Origin: a virus
Virus record (IMG/VR): IMGVR_UViG_3300026311_000663
DNA length: 39,410 nt
Strand: one strand, 5' to 3'
This document shows positions 1 through 37,753 of the stretch, one piece after another. Every line of letters begins with the position of its first letter. Positions within the stretch are counted from its first letter, which is position 1. The notes beneath the pieces were generated by a model. It made no database searches, was not told where the DNA came from, and worked only from the letters and a program-made list of their open reading frames with translations. The position numbers and the translations under genes are program-made.

Positions 1-157
1 TAAAAAAATAATCGCTGAACAAAGAGCCAAAATTGAAAAATTTAAGCAAATAGCCGTTCACGTTGTGGAGCATTGTTGTACTGATTGCGAAGATACCACA
101 ATGTGTGAGTATGGATGTGCTATAACAGAGTTAAAAGAAGCATTGGATTATCAGCAA
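1..157 (+). repeat. Direct repeat copy A (copy B at 37561-37717)
   Basis: 127 bp identical, then 3 mismatches (128, 129, 131), then identical 132-157. Confidence 0.97.
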
Positions 158-175
158 GAGAAGGTGAACCCATGA
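1..175 (+). CDS. 5'-truncated Cys-rich small protein, allele of 37541..37753
   Basis: Frame from position 2 reads KKIIAEQRAKIEKFKQIAVHVVEHCCTDCEDTTMCEYGCAITELKEALDYQQEKVNP*; stop overlaps the next ATG (ATGA at 172-175). Confidence 0.75.
   Translation, partial: KKIIAEQRAKIEKFKQIAVHVVEHCCTDCEDTTMCEYGCAITELKEALDYQQEKVNP
143..164 (+). repeat. Gene-end linker motif TTGGATTATCAGCAAGAGAAGG (exact also at 13310-13331 and 36661-36682; partial at 37128-37142 and 37703-37717)
   Basis: Exact 22-mer read at three loci, each just before a stop codon and the next start. Confidence 0.9.
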
Positions 176-483
176 AAGATAGCGTTGGAACTACTCGTTA
201 TTTGATGGGTAAATACCCAGTTGAGATAGTAAATTGTGGTGAAGCTGATTTCGGTGAATATGTAGATGAATGTCCAGAGCAGCAAAATTGTCTTAGGGCT
301 AAAGTTCTTCAAGATTGTACTATAACTTTGATGGCTGTTGATTATGACGAAGATGGGTCGAAACCTGATTTAGTGCCTCTGCCTGACATATTACGCAAAG
401 GAGAAATTAGGTGTTTTCCTGCTATGTGGCTTCACAAAAAAGCATCTCTTAAACCAATTTCAACCAAAGGAGATAAGCAGTAA
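172..483 (+). CDS. Hypothetical protein
   Basis: ATG at 172 after an AAGGTG RBS; overlapped start and stop in the operon. Confidence 0.7.
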   Translation: MKDSVGTTRYLMGKYPVEIVNCGEADFGEYVDECPEQQNCLRAKVLQDCTITLMAVDYDEDGSKPDLVPLPDILRKGEIRCFPAMWLHKKASLKPISTKGDKQ

Positions 484-836
484 TGGAGCAATTCCCGATA
501 GTTTGCATCTGTGGTAGCACCAGATTTGAGCAGGAAACAAAACAAATGGCAGAGCAATTAACATTAGCTGGTCAAGTTGTGCTGATGGTTAATTGCTGGT
601 CTAAAAAAGACAAGCTTCATGAACCACAAAACGCTATAGATGAAAAAATAAAAGAAATGCTTGACAAAATACACAAACAAAAGATTCGTATGGCTGACTA
701 TGTTTTAGTTATGAACATTCACGGTTATTGGGGAAAAAGCACACAATCAGAAATTAATTATGCTAACAGCATAGGGAAACCTGTTAGGTATGTTGAGTCA
801 TTGAATAACTCTAAAGAGAAAGAGGGAAAAACTTGA
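483..836 (+). CDS. Nucleoside 2-deoxyribosyltransferase-like (NDT/DUF4406-type) protein
   Basis: Motifs IVCICGSTRF, LDKIHKQKIRMADYVLVMN, GYWGKSTQSEINYA and GKPV are typical of this virus-associated flavodoxin-fold family. Confidence 0.65.
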   Translation: MEQFPIVCICGSTRFEQETKQMAEQLTLAGQVVLMVNCWSKKDKLHEPQNAIDEKIKEMLDKIHKQKIRMADYVLVMNIHGYWGKSTQSEINYANSIGKPVRYVESLNNSKEKEGKT

Positions 837-1144
837 GTAGTTTAGAATCAAAAGCAAAAACACCCGAAGAGATAATGCGTTCCGCAAAGATGCCTCACGG
901 ATTCAAAGAAAAATGGATCCCCCTTAAGGAAGCACAGAAAGAAATTAGTGCCCTGAAAATAGAGTTTGAAAAAAACAATGCCTTTACACATAACAAGATT
1001 CTTGAATTTGTCTGTAATATGAAGGAAGAATGTGCTGATATTAGTAATATGGTTGATTATCTCTTTGAAAAACTCACGTTTTTTCAATCGCTTAACCGAC
1101 AACAATCGGTTGGTAAAAACACGATGGAGAGCAAACAGAAATGA
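833..1144 (+). CDS. Hypothetical protein
   Basis: TTG start overlapping the upstream stop (TTGA); in operon. Confidence 0.6.
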   Translation: MSSLESKAKTPEEIMRSAKMPHGFKEKWIPLKEAQKEISALKIEFEKNNAFTHNKILEFVCNMKEECADISNMVDYLFEKLTFFQSLNRQQSVGKNTMESKQK

Positions 1145-1193
1145 AAGAAAATGCTAAAAATGAAGATTTGCATACAATGGAGAATAAAGAGAA

Positions 1194-1664
1194 ATGATTA
1201 AAAAAATAAGGAAAAAAATAAGGAAATGCGAGTGTGGAAAGATAGCAGTAGGAGTTATTTCTGTTCTTCGTGGTCATAAATATGTTTGTCAGGAGTGTGC
1301 TGAGAAAAGTGGGTTATATGTTGACTATTGTAATTGGAGGCTTTATGATAATTCGGCTGCGCAAATGAGGCGAGAGAAATATCCTAAAGATCGTAAACTC
1401 AGGTATGCTTTGGGTGTTGTTTTATCTCGAAAAAATTATAGGCGAAGTTACATTAGTTTATTGTTGGGTTACGGTTTATATTCGCTTGATTCGATGGAGA
1501 GGCATTTTTTGTTGGAACATTGTGATCCAGAGTTGACTAAGGTATTTGATGATGATGAATTTCGCAAACGTGAAGTGGAGAAACACCTTGAACAATACAA
1601 AGCTGAAATAGAACAGTTTTTGTTAGCAACTAATGATAAAAGGAGATGTAGGAATAATGCGTAA
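1194..1664 (+). CDS. Hypothetical protein with N-terminal Zn ribbon
   Basis: CECG...CQEC; ATGA overlap; GGAG RBS. Confidence 0.65.
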   Translation: MIKKIRKKIRKCECGKIAVGVISVLRGHKYVCQECAEKSGLYVDYCNWRLYDNSAAQMRREKYPKDRKLRYALGVVLSRKNYRRSYISLLLGYGLYSLDSMERHFLLEHCDPELTKVFDDDEFRKREVEKHLEQYKAEIEQFLLATNDKRRCRNNA

Positions 1665-2037
1665 GTGGAAAACTAAGCGGTTTTTGGAGTATGTGTATGA
1701 GGATTGTTTGAATTGCGGTAAACCGTTGAGGTTTGCGATTTATGAAGAAGCAGATACTTTTGACGCTAAATCGGGTAAGCCTCAGTGGGATATGGGGTCT
1801 TTTGTTCATGGTGAAAAGGCTTGTAGTTGTGGGGCTGAATTTCTTATTGCTGATGATTTGCAGAGTGTTAATATTTATTGGCTTAACAAAGACAAAATGC
1901 CTTCTCAAGAAGAATTGAAGCAGAGGGTTAAAGCTAAAAGGGTTAAGAATCCTTGGCCTGAAATTAAAAAAGCTGTGATGCCTGATCTTCTCAAGTATAT
2001 TGAGGATAAAGGTATTTTGTTGGAACGATACTGTTAA
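1657..2037 (+). CDS. Zn-ribbon protein whose C-terminus was replaced by the transposon end
   Basis: CLNC...CSC; its stop codon (2035-2037) lies inside the left TIR; original tail is at 7862-7902. Confidence 0.75.
   Translation: MRKWKTKRFLEYVYEDCLNCGKPLRFAIYEEADTFDAKSGKPQWDMGSFVHGEKACSCGAEFLIADDLQSVNIYWLNKDKMPSQEELKQRVKAKRVKNPWPEIKKAVMPDLLKYIEDKGILLERYC
2018..2026 (+). repeat. Left target-site duplication TGTTGGAAC
   Basis: Identical to 7862-7870; both copies abut the TIRs. Confidence 0.95.
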
Positions 2038-2049
2038 GTTATTTGTCAT
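2027..2049 (+). repeat. Left terminal inverted repeat GATACTGTTAAGTTATTTGTCAT
   Basis: Exact reverse complement of 7839-7861. Confidence 0.96.
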
Positions 2050-36389: not shown

Positions 36390-36544
36390 GTGAGATATGG
36401 CATGTCTGTAAAACATGCGCTTTCTCCGAGAAGGGTCGGCCTGATGGAGTGAATTGTAAAAGTAAACGTGCTTTTCATGTTGGCTTCTGCCGAAATTGGG
36501 TTCCGTTGAATCACCAATCAACAGATGAGGAAAAACAGAAATGA
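36386..36544 (+). CDS. Small Cys-rich protein (52 aa)
   Basis: GTGA overlap; CKTC..C..C. Confidence 0.55.
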   Translation: MSEIWHVCKTCAFSEKGRPDGVNCKSKRAFHVGFCRNWVPLNHQSTDEEKQK

Positions 36545-36693
36545 ATTTCCACATTAACTTAATCATAAAAGCGGTCACAGAATGGGTTTCTGGGAAACTT
36601 GTCGCTGGAAATGAAAAAGCAAATTCCCACAATGAGGTTATCCTGAAACTTTTAGCTGAGTTGGATTATCAGCAAGAGAAGGAGAAAAAGTAA
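36541..36693 (+). CDS. Shorter paralog of the 13112/37320 family (50 aa)
   Basis: ..EWVSGKLVAGNEKANSHNEVILKLLAELDYQQEKEKK*. Confidence 0.65.
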   Translation: MNFHINLIIKAVTEWVSGKLVAGNEKANSHNEVILKLLAELDYQQEKEKK

Positions 36694-36804
36694 GATGTTT
36701 GGTAGAAATGTAAAAAATAAAGAAGGTTGTGAAGATTGTGGTGAATACTCTCGTGGTAGAGCTGACGCTGAAGAAGAAATCAAAGAGAAAGAGGTTGAGC
36801 AGAA

Positions 36805-37116
36805 ATGAATAAGACAGAAGCTATAAAAGAATTTGAGGATAAGATTAAGGATTTTCAATGTTGCGAAATAATTCAAGTCGAATATATTAGTCATAAACAA
36901 GGAGTATTTCAAGCTGAAACCATAGATGATTTCTTAGCAGTTCTAAAAAATATGAAAAAAGAAAGAATCTTAATATTTCACAGTGTTCAAAAGAAGGAAG
37001 AATATGCTGTTATTTTTAATTGTTTCCTCATTACTTTTAATGTTCCATTTGAAGAAGAACCAAAAAATAGTGAAAGTTCGCTTCCGAATGATTGGAACTA
37101 CCCAAATTTGAGTTAG
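36805..37116 (+). CDS. Hypothetical protein
   Basis: ATGA overlap with an upstream 37-aa ORF (36695-36808). Confidence 0.6.
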   Translation: MNKTEAIKEFEDKIKDFQCCEIIQVEYISHKQGVFQAETIDDFLAVLKNMKKERILIFHSVQKKEEYAVIFNCFLITFNVPFEEEPKNSESSLPNDWNYPNLS

Positions 37117-37158
37117 TTAATGATTGCATCAGCAAGAGAAGGAGAATAAGTAAACAAG

Positions 37159-37323
37159 ATGAATAAGGAAGATATTATAGAAATTTTAAAAGAATTGCAA
37201 ATTTGTATCTTTTATGCTGGAGTTAGAGCAGATGGTAATATCAACGGTGAAGATTTAGTTAATGCACTTGGACTTAGGTGTAAAGAATTATCAGTAACAA
37301 ACAACGGAGAGAACAAACAATGA
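37159..37323 (+). CDS. Small hypothetical protein (54 aa)
   Basis: ATG after the linker motif/RBS; ATGA overlap downstream. Confidence 0.55.
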   Translation: MNKEDIIEILKELQICIFYAGVRADGNINGEDLVNALGLRCKELSVTNNGENKQ

Positions 37324-37544
37324 GTGACCTTAGACAGTTGTTGAATGATAGTTCTCTTAAAGAGTTTACTTATGACGAGCAGAGTTTTGAGAACAAAATA
37401 GATTATGCGGTTGATGAGGTAATCAAAGTTTTCCGTAGGTGGCTTTCTGGGAAACTTGTTGCTGGTAGCGAGAAGGCAACTCCGCACAATGATGTTATCC
37501 TGAAACTTTTAGCTGAAATAAAAGATGGAGAATACAAACCTTGA
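37320..37544 (+). CDS. Paralog of 13112..13345
   Basis: Near-identical first 64 codons; different tail (AEIKDGEYKP). Confidence 0.75.
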   Translation: MSDLRQLLNDSSLKEFTYDEQSFENKIDYAVDEVIKVFRRWLSGKLVAGSEKATPHNDVILKLLAEIKDGEYKP

Positions 37545-37753
37545 CTGACCAGAGAACGCTTAAAAAAATAATCGCTGAACAAAGAGCCAAAATTGAAAAA
37601 TTTAAGCAAATAGCCGTTCACGTTGTGGAGCATTGTTGTACTGATTGCGAAGATACCACAATGTGTGAGTATGGATGTGCTATAACAATGCTAAAAGAAG
37701 CATTGGATTATCAGCAACAATCGGATAAACTAAAAGAAACGGATAGTAAGTAA
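37541..37753 (+). CDS. Cys-rich small protein, full-length allele of 1..175
   Basis: HCCTDC..MCEYGC; tail LDYQQQSDKLKETDSK. Confidence 0.75.
   Translation: MTDQRTLKKIIAEQRAKIEKFKQIAVHVVEHCCTDCEDTTMCEYGCAITMLKEALDYQQQSDKLKETDSK
37561..37717 (+). repeat. Direct repeat copy B of 1-157
   Basis: Direct sequence comparison. Confidence 0.97.

What the first reader, a model, noticed from the sequence alone, without database searches (positions are those of the whole stretch)
143..37717. Shared gene-end 'linker' motif suggests cassette shuffling among the small early genes
Seen: TTGGATTATCAGCAAGAGAAGG is exact at 143, 13310 and 36661 and partial at 37128 and 37703. It always encodes the last residues of a gene (LDYQQEK) and supplies the AAGG(A/T)G RBS of the next. 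The downstream genes are unrelated at each locus, and two unrelated gene families end in it. The RBS explains only a few of the 22 bases. Inference: these are recombination joints that let whole genes be swapped with their translation coupling intact, analogous to linker/boundary sequences in bacteriophages. Either homologous recombination or the minimal tyrosine recombinase could act on them.
Basis: partly seen in the sequence, partly recalled or inferred. Interest (0 to 1): 0.75.

Follow-up and report, generated by a model that had tools for sequence, protein, structure and literature searches.

The report
Shared gene-end joint shuffles viral genes
A 22-base sequence at the ends of small genes in this probably archaeal virus is the point where related viruses have repeatedly swapped the genes on either side, a clear example of the long-debated "linker" route to mosaic virus genomes.

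Summary
TTGGATTATCAGCAAGAGAAGG is exact at 143, 13310 and 36661 and partial at 37128 and 37703; 100 shuffles gave none.

Two corrections apply:
- 143 and 37703 are probably one locus in two strain variants, because 1-127 equals 37561-37687 (a 37,560-bp circle plus a branch).
- 37128 is a non-coding remnant.

The recombination-joint reading is supported.
- The two window gene families are unrelated outside the tail (hhalign aligns 19 columns only).
- Seventeen near-identical A proteins from other metagenomes are almost invariant up to ..LDYQQ. They then split into about a dozen tails.
- At least six further gene bodies end in the motif, and about nine downstream leaders follow it, in many-to-many combinations.
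- Joining window flanks across the motif in silico reproduces relatives. One match is exact (58/58 aa). The other matches the first 22 residues.
- A third family reads the same bases in another frame (..LSAREGE..), so the conserved unit is DNA, not a peptide.

There is no dyad symmetry, no conserved fold and no fixed crossover point. This favours short-homology recombination over the tyrosine recombinase, but no enzyme was identified.

Relatives' DNA could not be fetched apart from one 1-kb contig, so most evidence is at protein level. I class it as a new variant of phage boundary sequences and PeSL cassettes.

The parts
143..164 (+). Motif copy 1, exact. It ends the A gene (A1 allele, ..EALDYQQEKVNP*), which runs 37541->175 across the circle junction. 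AAGGTGA lies 4 nt before the ATG at 172.
172..483 (+). 103-aa gene downstream of copy 1, overlapping the A stop codon (ATGA). P0088 shows the same A-to-this-gene junction. P0086 shows a different upstream gene.
13112..13345 (+). B1 gene (77 aa). Its 5' 200 nt are 95% identical to B2, and it ends ..LLHELDYQQEKDVTK*.
13310..13331 (+). Motif copy 2, exact.
13342..13458 (+). 38-aa Cys-rich gene downstream of copy 2. It is truncated relative to the 112-123-aa relatives P0092-P0094.
36541..36693 (+). B3 gene (50 aa), with a different N-terminus and the same core and tail (..LLAELDYQQEKEKK*).
36661..36682 (+). Motif copy 3, exact. AAGGAG lies 10 nt before the ATG at 36695.
36695..37116 (+). The 37-aa and 103-aa genes that lie between copy 3 and the remnant copy, that is, a cassette bracketed by direct motif copies.
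37128..37146 (+). Non-coding remnant copy (motif nt 8-22 plus AGAA). It serves as leader and Shine-Dalgarno sequence for the 54-aa gene. Its 5' flank joined to the 3' flank of copy 2 reproduces relative P0094.
37159..37323 (+). 54-aa gene. In the window only ATTATCAG (37287-37294) of the motif is present near its end. In relatives P0108-P0110 and P0112 the gene ends in the full motif read in another frame (..KELSAREGE..).
37320..37544 (+). B2 gene with the alternative tail ..AEIKDGEYKP*, which carries the GGAG for the A-gene start. It has no motif. Identity to B1 stops within 1 nt of the motif's 5' edge.
37541..37753 (+). A gene, A2 allele (variant branch). Identity to A1 ends after motif nt 15 (37717), and the tail is QSDKLKETDSK*.
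37703..37717 (+). Partial motif copy (the first 15 nt).
37541..37585 (+). Conserved 5' module of the A gene (MTDQRTLKKIIAEQR). In relatives it heads at least eight unrelated bodies, so it is a gene-start counterpart of the gene-end joint.
35806..35824 (+). Second gene-end joint, copy 1 (TGTAGATGAATCAACGGAG). It ends the 122-aa ASCH-domain gene and supplies GGAG for the next gene.
36102..36120 (+). Second gene-end joint, copy 2. It ends the unrelated 99-aa gene.

Best explanation
The 22-nt sequence is a DNA-level module joint. It covers the last codons of whichever gene lies upstream and the purine-rich Shine-Dalgarno element of whichever gene lies downstream.

The same short sequence sits at many gene ends across a pool of closely related, co-circulating viruses and on paralogous copies within one genome. 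Recombination guided by this short homology joins any upstream gene to any downstream gene. The mechanism could be host or viral homologous recombination, or microhomology-guided template switching during replication. Each event leaves an intact upstream reading frame and intact translational coupling.

Between two direct copies, the same reaction would delete a cassette or excise it as a circle. That circle could then re-enter at any other copy.

What is shown and what is inferred:
- Shown: the joints, the independent reassortment of both flanks, use in two reading frames, and the recombinant products.
- Inferred: that homology at the motif causes the joints to cluster there, rather than only marking them. 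Which enzymes act is also inferred.
For: 1. The motif is far beyond chance, and it is the only multi-copy word outside paralog bodies.
2. In-window homology ends at it. A1/A2 are identical at 154 of the first 157 nt, and identity stops after motif nt 15. B1/B2 are 95% identical over 201 nt, and this stops at the 5' edge. B3 and the remnant share only nt 8-22 plus 4.
3. Seventeen A proteins from independent assemblies have near-zero entropy up to ..DYQQ and 1.2-3.3 bits from the next residue on.
4. Several tails are shared by unrelated bodies:
   - ESKVKSNE, EKENK, EKQGVRE and EKEKQK are each found on both A and B proteins.
   - EKEKI is found on A, L010-type and P0064-type proteins.
   - EKDVTK is found on B1 and L010-type proteins.
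   - EKQGVRE is also found on a further small open reading frame.
5. In-silico joins of window flanks across the core CAGCAAGAGAAGG reproduce P0108 exactly (58/58 aa), the first 22 residues of P0094, and the P0034 tail.
6. The 54-aa family reads the same bases in another frame, and copy 37128 is non-coding. The conserved entity is therefore nucleotide sequence.
7. Direct copies bracket cassettes: 36661 / 37128 / A-end in the window, and YQQEKEKQK-MNDFCKW..-YQQEKEKQK in P0163.
8. The only external DNA, L010, keeps 26-28 nt identical at the motif although the gene body is only 43% identical in protein, and there is no same-strand downstream gene.
Against: - Most joints are inferred from protein tails and run-on translations. 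Co-residence on one contig is inferred only from equal contig lengths.
- The clusters are defined at 90% identity, which by construction selects near-identical bodies.
- A synonymous-site test does not show nucleotide conservation beyond the local background. B1/B3 have 5 synonymous differences in 21 conserved core codons against 0 in 7 in the motif (P about 0.15). Window A against L010 has 3 in 13 against 0 in 8 (P about 0.12) (counted by hand).
- 15-22 nt is short for classical RadA-type recombination.
- No recombinase acting on the motif was identified.
- Selection for intact frames and Shine-Dalgarno elements would also concentrate surviving joints at gene ends.
Confidence: 0.62

Rival explanations
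1. There is no hotspot. Illegitimate recombination occurs anywhere, and only products with an intact upstream gene and an intact downstream ribosome-binding site survive, so joints pile up at gene ends (the Hendrix/Hatfull view). The motif is simply a leader that spread by descent together with the genes that carry it.
For: - Tails in general belong to the downstream gene. The leader (K)EKEVEQK of gene 36805 follows three different upstream genes without any LDYQQEK.
- The tails after ..V| are shared among the 122-, 99- and 86-aa families, where the homology is weak.
- The synonymous-site test is not significant.
Against: - Both flanks of the motif vary independently, in a many-to-many pattern of at least 8 upstream contexts by about 9 downstream leaders.
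- Joints recur within the same 22 nt, in two reading frames and in a non-coding copy.
- Exact reciprocal-type recombinants of window sequences exist elsewhere.
- Random joints filtered only by function should scatter over the dispensable tail codons.
Confidence: 0.2
2. The joints come from site-specific or nuclease-driven cassette exchange. The motif would be the recognition site of the 220-aa tyrosine-recombinase-like protein (13514-14176, - strand), as in an integron, or of the HNH endonuclease (10697-11023), with repair then copying the flanking DNA.
For: - Copy 2 lies 170 nt from the recombinase-like gene.
- Read by eye, that protein shows GRxxE, HxLRH, W and Y motifs.
- An HNH domain is present.
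- Cassettes are bracketed by direct motif copies.
Against: - The motif has no self-complementary word of 4 nt or more and no conserved hairpin (z from -1.9 to +0.3).
- Breakpoints are spread: the 5' edges fall at nt 1, 5 and 8 and the 3' edges after nt 12, 15 and 22. There is no fixed crossover point.
- The 220-aa protein matches no Pfam, PHROG or PDB entry.
Confidence: 0.08
3. LDYQQEK is a functional C-terminal peptide, such as an interaction or degradation tag, shared by several small proteins. On this view the DNA identity only reflects recent common descent.
For: - It is the commonest tail of the A, B and L010-type proteins.
- Protein-level variants (LNYQQEK, LDIQQEK, LSYQQEK) exist, as expected for an evolving peptide.
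Against: - The same bases are read as LSAREGE in the 54-aa family and are untranslated at 37128.
- B proteins do without it (KDGEYKP, KEKEVEQK tails).
- 4-18 variable residues follow it, so it is not a true C-terminal tag.
- More distant A-core and B-core relatives lack it.
Confidence: 0.04
4. The apparent recombinants are assembly chimeras formed at a 22-nt repeat in metagenome assemblies.
For: - Many relatives sit on short contigs of 0.5-2 kb.
- The window contig itself carries an assembly-graph branch at 128/37688.
Against: - A repeat breaks de Bruijn contigs rather than fusing them (general knowledge of assemblers).
- The same combinations recur in independent sources (JGI, ENA, Logan, NCBI) and on several contigs each. 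Examples are P0109 on 6 contigs, P0154 on 6 and P0085 on 4.
- The window's own copies lie inside one long contig.
Confidence: 0.04

Closest known systems
Short conserved 'boundary' or 'linker' sequences at module junctions of lambdoid phages (Susskind & Botstein's modular theory; Clark et al. on HK620), as summarised in PMC3029335
   Same: A short conserved sequence sits between non-homologous modules. It lies at gene boundaries, and its flanks reassort among related genomes. It is proposed to be used by general recombination.
   Different: - Here the joint lies inside coding sequence. It doubles as the Shine-Dalgarno element, is read in two frames, and serves a many-to-many set of partners.
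- The host is probably archaeal.
[quoted passage not shown] Here they are explicit.
PeSL (promoter-early stem-loop) regulatory cassettes of T4-type phages (Arbiol et al. 2010, PMC2839356; PMC4122927)
   Same: A repeated expression signal flanks small genes of unknown function in a hyperplastic region. Recombination between copies causes insertions, deletions and replacements, and the same reaction predicts excised mini-circles.
   Different: A PeSL is an intergenic sigma-70 promoter plus a terminator hairpin of several tens of bases. This motif is 22 nt, has no hairpin and no promoter, and acts on translation rather than transcription. Mini-circles were not tested here.
Integron attC/attI cassette sites
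   Same: Promoterless single-gene cassettes in one orientation are bracketed by a repeated site, and a tyrosine-recombinase-like gene is present in the same genome.
   Different: There is no imperfect inverted repeat, no folded single-strand structure and no fixed crossover point. The recombinase-like gene is unclassified.
Direct repeats in the 3' ends of SSV1 VP1 and VP3 that excise intervening DNA by homologous recombination (cited in PMC6080066)
   Same: Short direct repeats at the C-terminal ends of neighbouring genes in an archaeal virus mediate deletion of what lies between them.
   Different: That is a single locus with two homologous genes. No combinatorial exchange among unrelated genes has been described there.

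Membership tests
Phage module-boundary (linker) sequence | A short conserved sequence located between non-homologous modules, at a gene boundary | tested here: met
   There are five copies, all at gene ends. The flanks are unrelated.
Phage module-boundary (linker) sequence | The two flanks reassort independently among related genomes | tested here: met
   Bodies and tails combine many-to-many. In-silico joins reproduce P0108 exactly, the first 22 residues of P0094 and the P0034 tail. The evidence is at protein level, except for L010.
Phage module-boundary (linker) sequence | Recombination actually initiates or resolves in the conserved sequence | not testable with these tools
   This needs reads, crosses or assays. 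Breakpoints inside the motif (after nt 12 and 15, and from nt 5 and 8) are consistent with it.
PeSL regulatory cassette | Composite of a strong early promoter plus a stem-loop terminator | tested here: not met
   There is no conserved fold (z from -1.9 to +0.3, with a different structure at each copy). The motif is coding or Shine-Dalgarno sequence.
PeSL regulatory cassette | Copies flank small non-essential genes in a hypervariable region, and indels between close relatives map to them | tested here: met
PeSL regulatory cassette | Mini-circles formed by exchange between neighbouring copies | not testable with these tools
   No read data are available.
Integron-type attC site / tyrosine-recombinase core site | Inverted-repeat binding arms around a fixed crossover position | tested here: not met
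   The motif has no self-complementary word of 4 nt or more, and the homology edges are scattered.
Tyrosine recombinase (the 220-aa protein, 13514-14176 -) | Significant match to a recombinase family, or the R-K-H-R-H/W-Y catalytic set in an alignment | tested here: inconclusive
   No Pfam, PHROG or PDB sequence hit. GRxxE, HALRHLR, GW and ERY were seen by eye only. Its structure was not predicted.
Shine-Dalgarno / translational-coupling element | A GGAG-type purine run 4-15 nt upstream of the next start codon, with start and stop overlapping or adjacent | tested here: met
   This holds for four of the five copies. ATGA overlaps occur at 172 and 13342. Most operon genes show the same pattern. 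Function was not assayed.

The most novel reading that the evidence does not exclude
The motif, together with the MTDQRTLKKII gene-start module and the VDESTE-type gene-end joint, is the site of a dedicated cassette-exchange system in an archaeal virus. Single genes would be excised as small circles and re-inserted at any copy by a virus-encoded enzyme, either the unclassified 220-aa recombinase-like protein or the HNH nuclease. This would be an integron- or PeSL-like gene-shuffling device built on a translational signal rather than a transcriptional or structured one.
Probability: 0.12. Interest if true: 0.85.

Novelty: new variant of a known kind. Interest (0 to 1): 0.6.

Why it matters
Virologists have long disagreed on how mosaic virus genomes arise. 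One view is homologous exchange at short conserved linkers. The other is random illegitimate joining followed by selection. Explicit linkers are rarely found.

Here one 22-nt joint links at least eight upstream contexts to about nine downstream genes in a natural population. It is used in two reading frames, and recombinants can be predicted base for base from the window. This makes the linker model directly testable in a probably archaeal virus, using reads, long-read haplotypes or outward PCR for circles.

It also has a practical consequence for annotation. The last 5-15 residues of these small proteins belong functionally to the next gene, which matters when clustering and annotating viral genes of unknown function.

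Tried and rejected
- **Known phage records:** megablast of 1-14200 and 35000-39410 found no match.
- **Own genome:** none is held for this window.
- **IMG/VR:** the exact motif, the degenerate LDYQQEK pattern, the B and A-core profiles, the 626-aa protein and the 99-aa protein found no relatives. The single hit, L001, is a chance in-gene match.
- **GTDB genomes:** the B profile and the degenerate pattern gave only chance hits.
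- **JGI metagenomes:** 16 pattern hits, of which only L010 is related. L008 is a chance match in another frame of a 148-aa ORF.
- **Tail-only profile search:** impossible, because the tool requires max_evalue of at most 10 and a query of at least 40 aa.
- **PHROG families:** no match for any of the ten motif-adjacent small proteins. Pfam was run only on the larger genes.
- **Conserved RNA or DNA structure, or dyad symmetry:** none found.
- **Archaeal promoter reading:** considered and rejected. The only TATA-like part (GATTATCA) is weak. Its distance to the next start varies from 29 to 38 nt. A Shine-Dalgarno element is present instead. This is inference only.
- **Nucleotide conservation beyond protein constraint:** tested by synonymous differences and not significant (P about 0.12-0.15).
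- **19-nt similarity at 12992:** the gene 12483-13115 is a methyltransferase, so this is a chance IEKFKQ match.

Full report
**Observation.** TTGGATTATCAGCAAGAGAAGG occurs exactly at 143, 13310 and 36661 on the + strand. No further match exists at up to 3 mismatches, and none appeared in 100 shuffles. Partial copies lie at 37128 (motif nt 8-22 plus AGAA, 19 nt identical to 36668-36686) and at 37703 (nt 1-15). An all-against-all word scan shows it is the only word of 14 nt or more with three or more copies, apart from the core of a paralogous gene and a tandem repeat.

**Anatomy in the window.**
- Copy 143 ends gene A (..CAITELKEALDYQQEKVNP*). The next gene starts at 172 with an ATGA overlap.
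- Copy 13310 ends gene B1 (..LLHELDYQQEKDVTK*). A 38-aa Cys-rich gene starts at 13342.
- Copy 36661 ends gene B3 (..LLAELDYQQEKEKK*). A 37-aa gene starts at 36695, followed by a 103-aa gene.
- Copy 37128 is not coding. It lies 11 nt after the stop of the 103-aa gene, with stop codons just upstream in the LDYQQEK frame. It serves as leader for the 54-aa gene at 37159.
- Copy 37703 lies in the second A allele, whose tail changes to QSDKLKETDSK* after motif nt 15.
- In four copies, AAGGTG, AAGGAG or AAGGA lies 4-14 nt before the next start codon. Most genes in these operons carry GGAG/GAGG/AAGG at -10 to -16.

**One genome or two.** Bases 1-127 equal 37561-37687 exactly. They are followed by a 3-mismatch patch, 26 more identical bases and then unrelated sequence. 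The final 1.7 kb shares nothing with the rest beyond those 26 nt at the A gene's 3' end. Copies 143 and 37703 are therefore most likely the same gene end in two co-occurring variants. That is already one between-strain breakpoint inside the motif.

**What the element is.**
- No phage record, IMG/VR contig or GTDB genome resembles it.
- Pfam and PHROG recognise the following:
  - a type I restriction-modification methylase and S subunit;
  - an IS6-family transposase;
  - DUF3800;
  - a DnaA-like protein;
  - an A24 prepilin peptidase;
  - a glycosyltransferase;
  - an HNH endonuclease;
  - an ASCH domain.
- Several close protein relatives are annotated as coming from a Thermoproteota archaeon MAG. 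That MAG keeps the window's order 99-aa, 86-aa.., B3-like on one 4,860-nt contig.
- I treat it as a probable archaeal virus or provirus. 'Early' expression is untested.

**Is it just one family's C-terminus? No.**
- A profile-profile comparison of family A (5 sequences) and family B (19 sequences) aligns only the 19-column tail, at 39% probability.
- Family B has a nearly invariant core (W.SGKLVAGSEKA..HNDVILKLLHEL), at least seven unrelated N-termini, and two alternative tails: DYQQEK.. or KDGE.K.. The KDGE tail carries the GGAG for a following A gene, as at 37530-37541.
- An exhaustive HMMER search finds only 12 B representatives among 1.84 billion proteins. The most distant ones lack the motif.
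- More distant A-core proteins (P0055-P0063) also lack it.
- Conversely the tail occurs on L010-type, P0064-type and P0068-type bodies, and on a small MNDFCKW/MSEGETF open reading frame.

**Hypervariable downstream side.** Seventeen A proteins from independent assemblies are almost invariant up to ..EALDYQQ (entropy 0-0.35 bits at most positions). From the next residue on, entropy jumps to 1.2-3.3 bits. About a dozen tails are seen: EKVNP, EKVRP, EKENK, EKENR, EKEKI, EKEKTSK, EKEKQK, EKQGVRE, ESKVKSNE, AKANQP, PIKEDKE, HLIKENK, QSD.. and QSV.. Clustering at 90% identity selects similar bodies by construction, but it does not explain wholesale replacement of the tail.

**Many-to-many joints.** Where the window shows it, each tail is the leader of a particular downstream gene:
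- EKVNP precedes gene 172.
- EKDVTK precedes the Cys-rich gene.
- EKEKK precedes the 37-aa gene.
- EKENK precedes the 54-aa gene.

The same tails follow different bodies in relatives:
- ESKVKSNE, EKENK, EKQGVRE and EKEKQK follow both A and B.
- EKEKI follows A, L010-type and P0064-type.
- EKDVTK follows B1 and L010-type.

As a direct test I joined window flanks across the core CAGCAAGAGAAGG in silico:
- The 54-aa gene body plus the 3' flank of copy 36661 translates to P0108 exactly (58/58 aa).
- The 5' flank of copy 37128 plus the 3' flank of copy 13310 gives MIASAREGCNKMNNLKDCPSFG, which equals the first 22 residues of P0094.
- The A body plus the 3' flank of copy 37128 gives the P0034 tail.

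So relatives elsewhere are recombinants of sequences present in the window, with the crossover inside the motif.

**DNA, not peptide.** In relatives of the 54-aa gene (P0108-P0110, P0112) the gene ends ..KELSAREGE... This is the motif read in a different frame (TTA TCA GCA AGA GAA GGA GAA). The window's own 54-aa gene shares only ATTATCAG (37287-37294) and then diverges into the leader of B2, which is another breakpoint inside the motif (after nt 12). Together with the non-coding copy at 37128, this rules out a peptide-level explanation.

**A caution.** The exact 22-nt identity is not by itself stronger than the local background.
- B1 and B3 differ at 5 of 21 conserved core codons synonymously, against 0 of 7 in the motif (P about 0.15).
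- Window A and the only external DNA (L010, a 1,065-nt JGI contig) differ at 3 of 13, against 0 of 8 (P about 0.12).
- L010 does keep 26-28 nt identical around the motif, although its A-like protein is only 43% identical and no same-strand gene follows.

**Mechanistic alternatives.**
- The motif has no self-complementary word of 4 nt or more. The five contexts fold differently, with z-scores from -1.9 to +0.3. It therefore does not look like an attC-type or core-type recombinase site, or like an RNA element.
- The homology edges are scattered: 5' edges at nt 1, 5 and 8, and 3' edges after nt 12, 15 and 22. This is expected for crossovers within a short homology, not for a fixed cleavage point.
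- The 220-aa protein next to copy 2 shows recombinase-like motifs by eye but has no Pfam, PHROG or PDB match.
- Assembly chimeras are unlikely. The same combinations recur in independent sources and on several contigs.

**Generality.**
- A second gene-end joint, TGTAGATGAATCAACGGAG, is exact at 35806 and 36102. It ends the adjacent, unrelated 122-aa and 99-aa genes and supplies GGAG for the next gene. In relatives the tails PDSIKGDEK, DDPKQEAKK and PDKMQG.. are shared among the 122-, 99- and 86-aa families.
- The A gene's first 15 codons (MTDQRTLKKIIAEQR, 37541-37585) head at least eight unrelated bodies in relatives. This is a gene-start counterpart of the gene-end joint.
- Other leaders, for example (K)EKEVEQK before gene 36805, also follow different upstream genes. 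The general rule is that the last residues of each small protein belong to the next gene's translation signal. The LDYQQEK motif is the most widely shared such joint.

**Conclusion and comparison.**
- The best-supported reading is a DNA-level linker that combines a gene end with a ribosome-binding site and is used by homology-guided recombination among co-circulating relatives and paralogous copies.
- It works like the boundary sequences proposed for lambdoid phages (PMC3029335) and like the PeSL cassettes of T4-type phages (PMC2839356). It differs in being coding, translational, only 22 nt long, used in two frames, and probably archaeal.
- The main rival is selection acting on random joints. 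It explains gene-end clustering in general. It does not explain the repeated, two-sided reuse of these same 22 nt.
Relatives were therefore analysed as proteins, and statements that two proteins share a contig rest on equal contig lengths only.

Noticed in passing
window 35806-35824 and 36102-36120: A second exact gene-end repeat (TGTAGATGAATCAACGGAG, encoding VDESTE). It ends two adjacent unrelated genes and supplies GGAG for the next gene. In relatives the tails after ..V| are exchanged among the 122-, 99- and 86-aa gene families.
   Followed up: partly
window 37541-37585 (and 1-45): The A gene's N-terminal 15 codons (MTDQRTLKKIIAEQR) are nearly invariant. In relatives they are fused to at least eight unrelated protein bodies (P0064-P0073), so they act as a gene-start module.
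   Followed up: partly
window 1-127 vs 37561-37687; 37688-39410: Exact 127-nt identity followed by divergence. The contig looks like a 37,560-bp circle plus a 1.7-kb alternative branch carrying different small genes, several of which look like membrane peptides.
   Followed up: yes
window 13342-13458: The Cys-rich gene after B1 is only 38 aa here but 112-123 aa in relatives (P0092-P0094). It is truncated at the end of the operon, 55 nt from the recombinase-like gene.
   Followed up: partly
relatives P0054, P0061, P0068, P0114, P0117, P0118 (not in the window): An in-frame module of about 33 aa (..SHDGRGVSERAQTRKSLNCRNDETP..) appears inserted near the 3' ends of at least three unrelated gene families. 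It may be a small mobile or regulatory DNA segment that is read through.
   Followed up: no
window 7877-7932 vs L010 69-124: 56 nt are 86% identical between the window (just right of the IS6-type element) and the unrelated end of contig L010. The stretch contains the palindrome GTAACCG..CGGTTAC and may be an operator or promoter block.
   Followed up: no
window 10697-11023: A 108-aa HNH endonuclease (Pfam PF01844, E 5e-6) lies in the small-gene operon.
   Followed up: no
window 36687-36698 and 37928-37939: AAAGTAAGATGT (stop codon plus the next start) is shared by two otherwise unrelated gene boundaries.
   Followed up: no
window 13514-14176 (-): This 220-aa protein shows recombinase-like GRxxE, HALRHLR, GW and ERY motifs by eye, but has no Pfam, PHROG or PDB sequence match.
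   Followed up: partly
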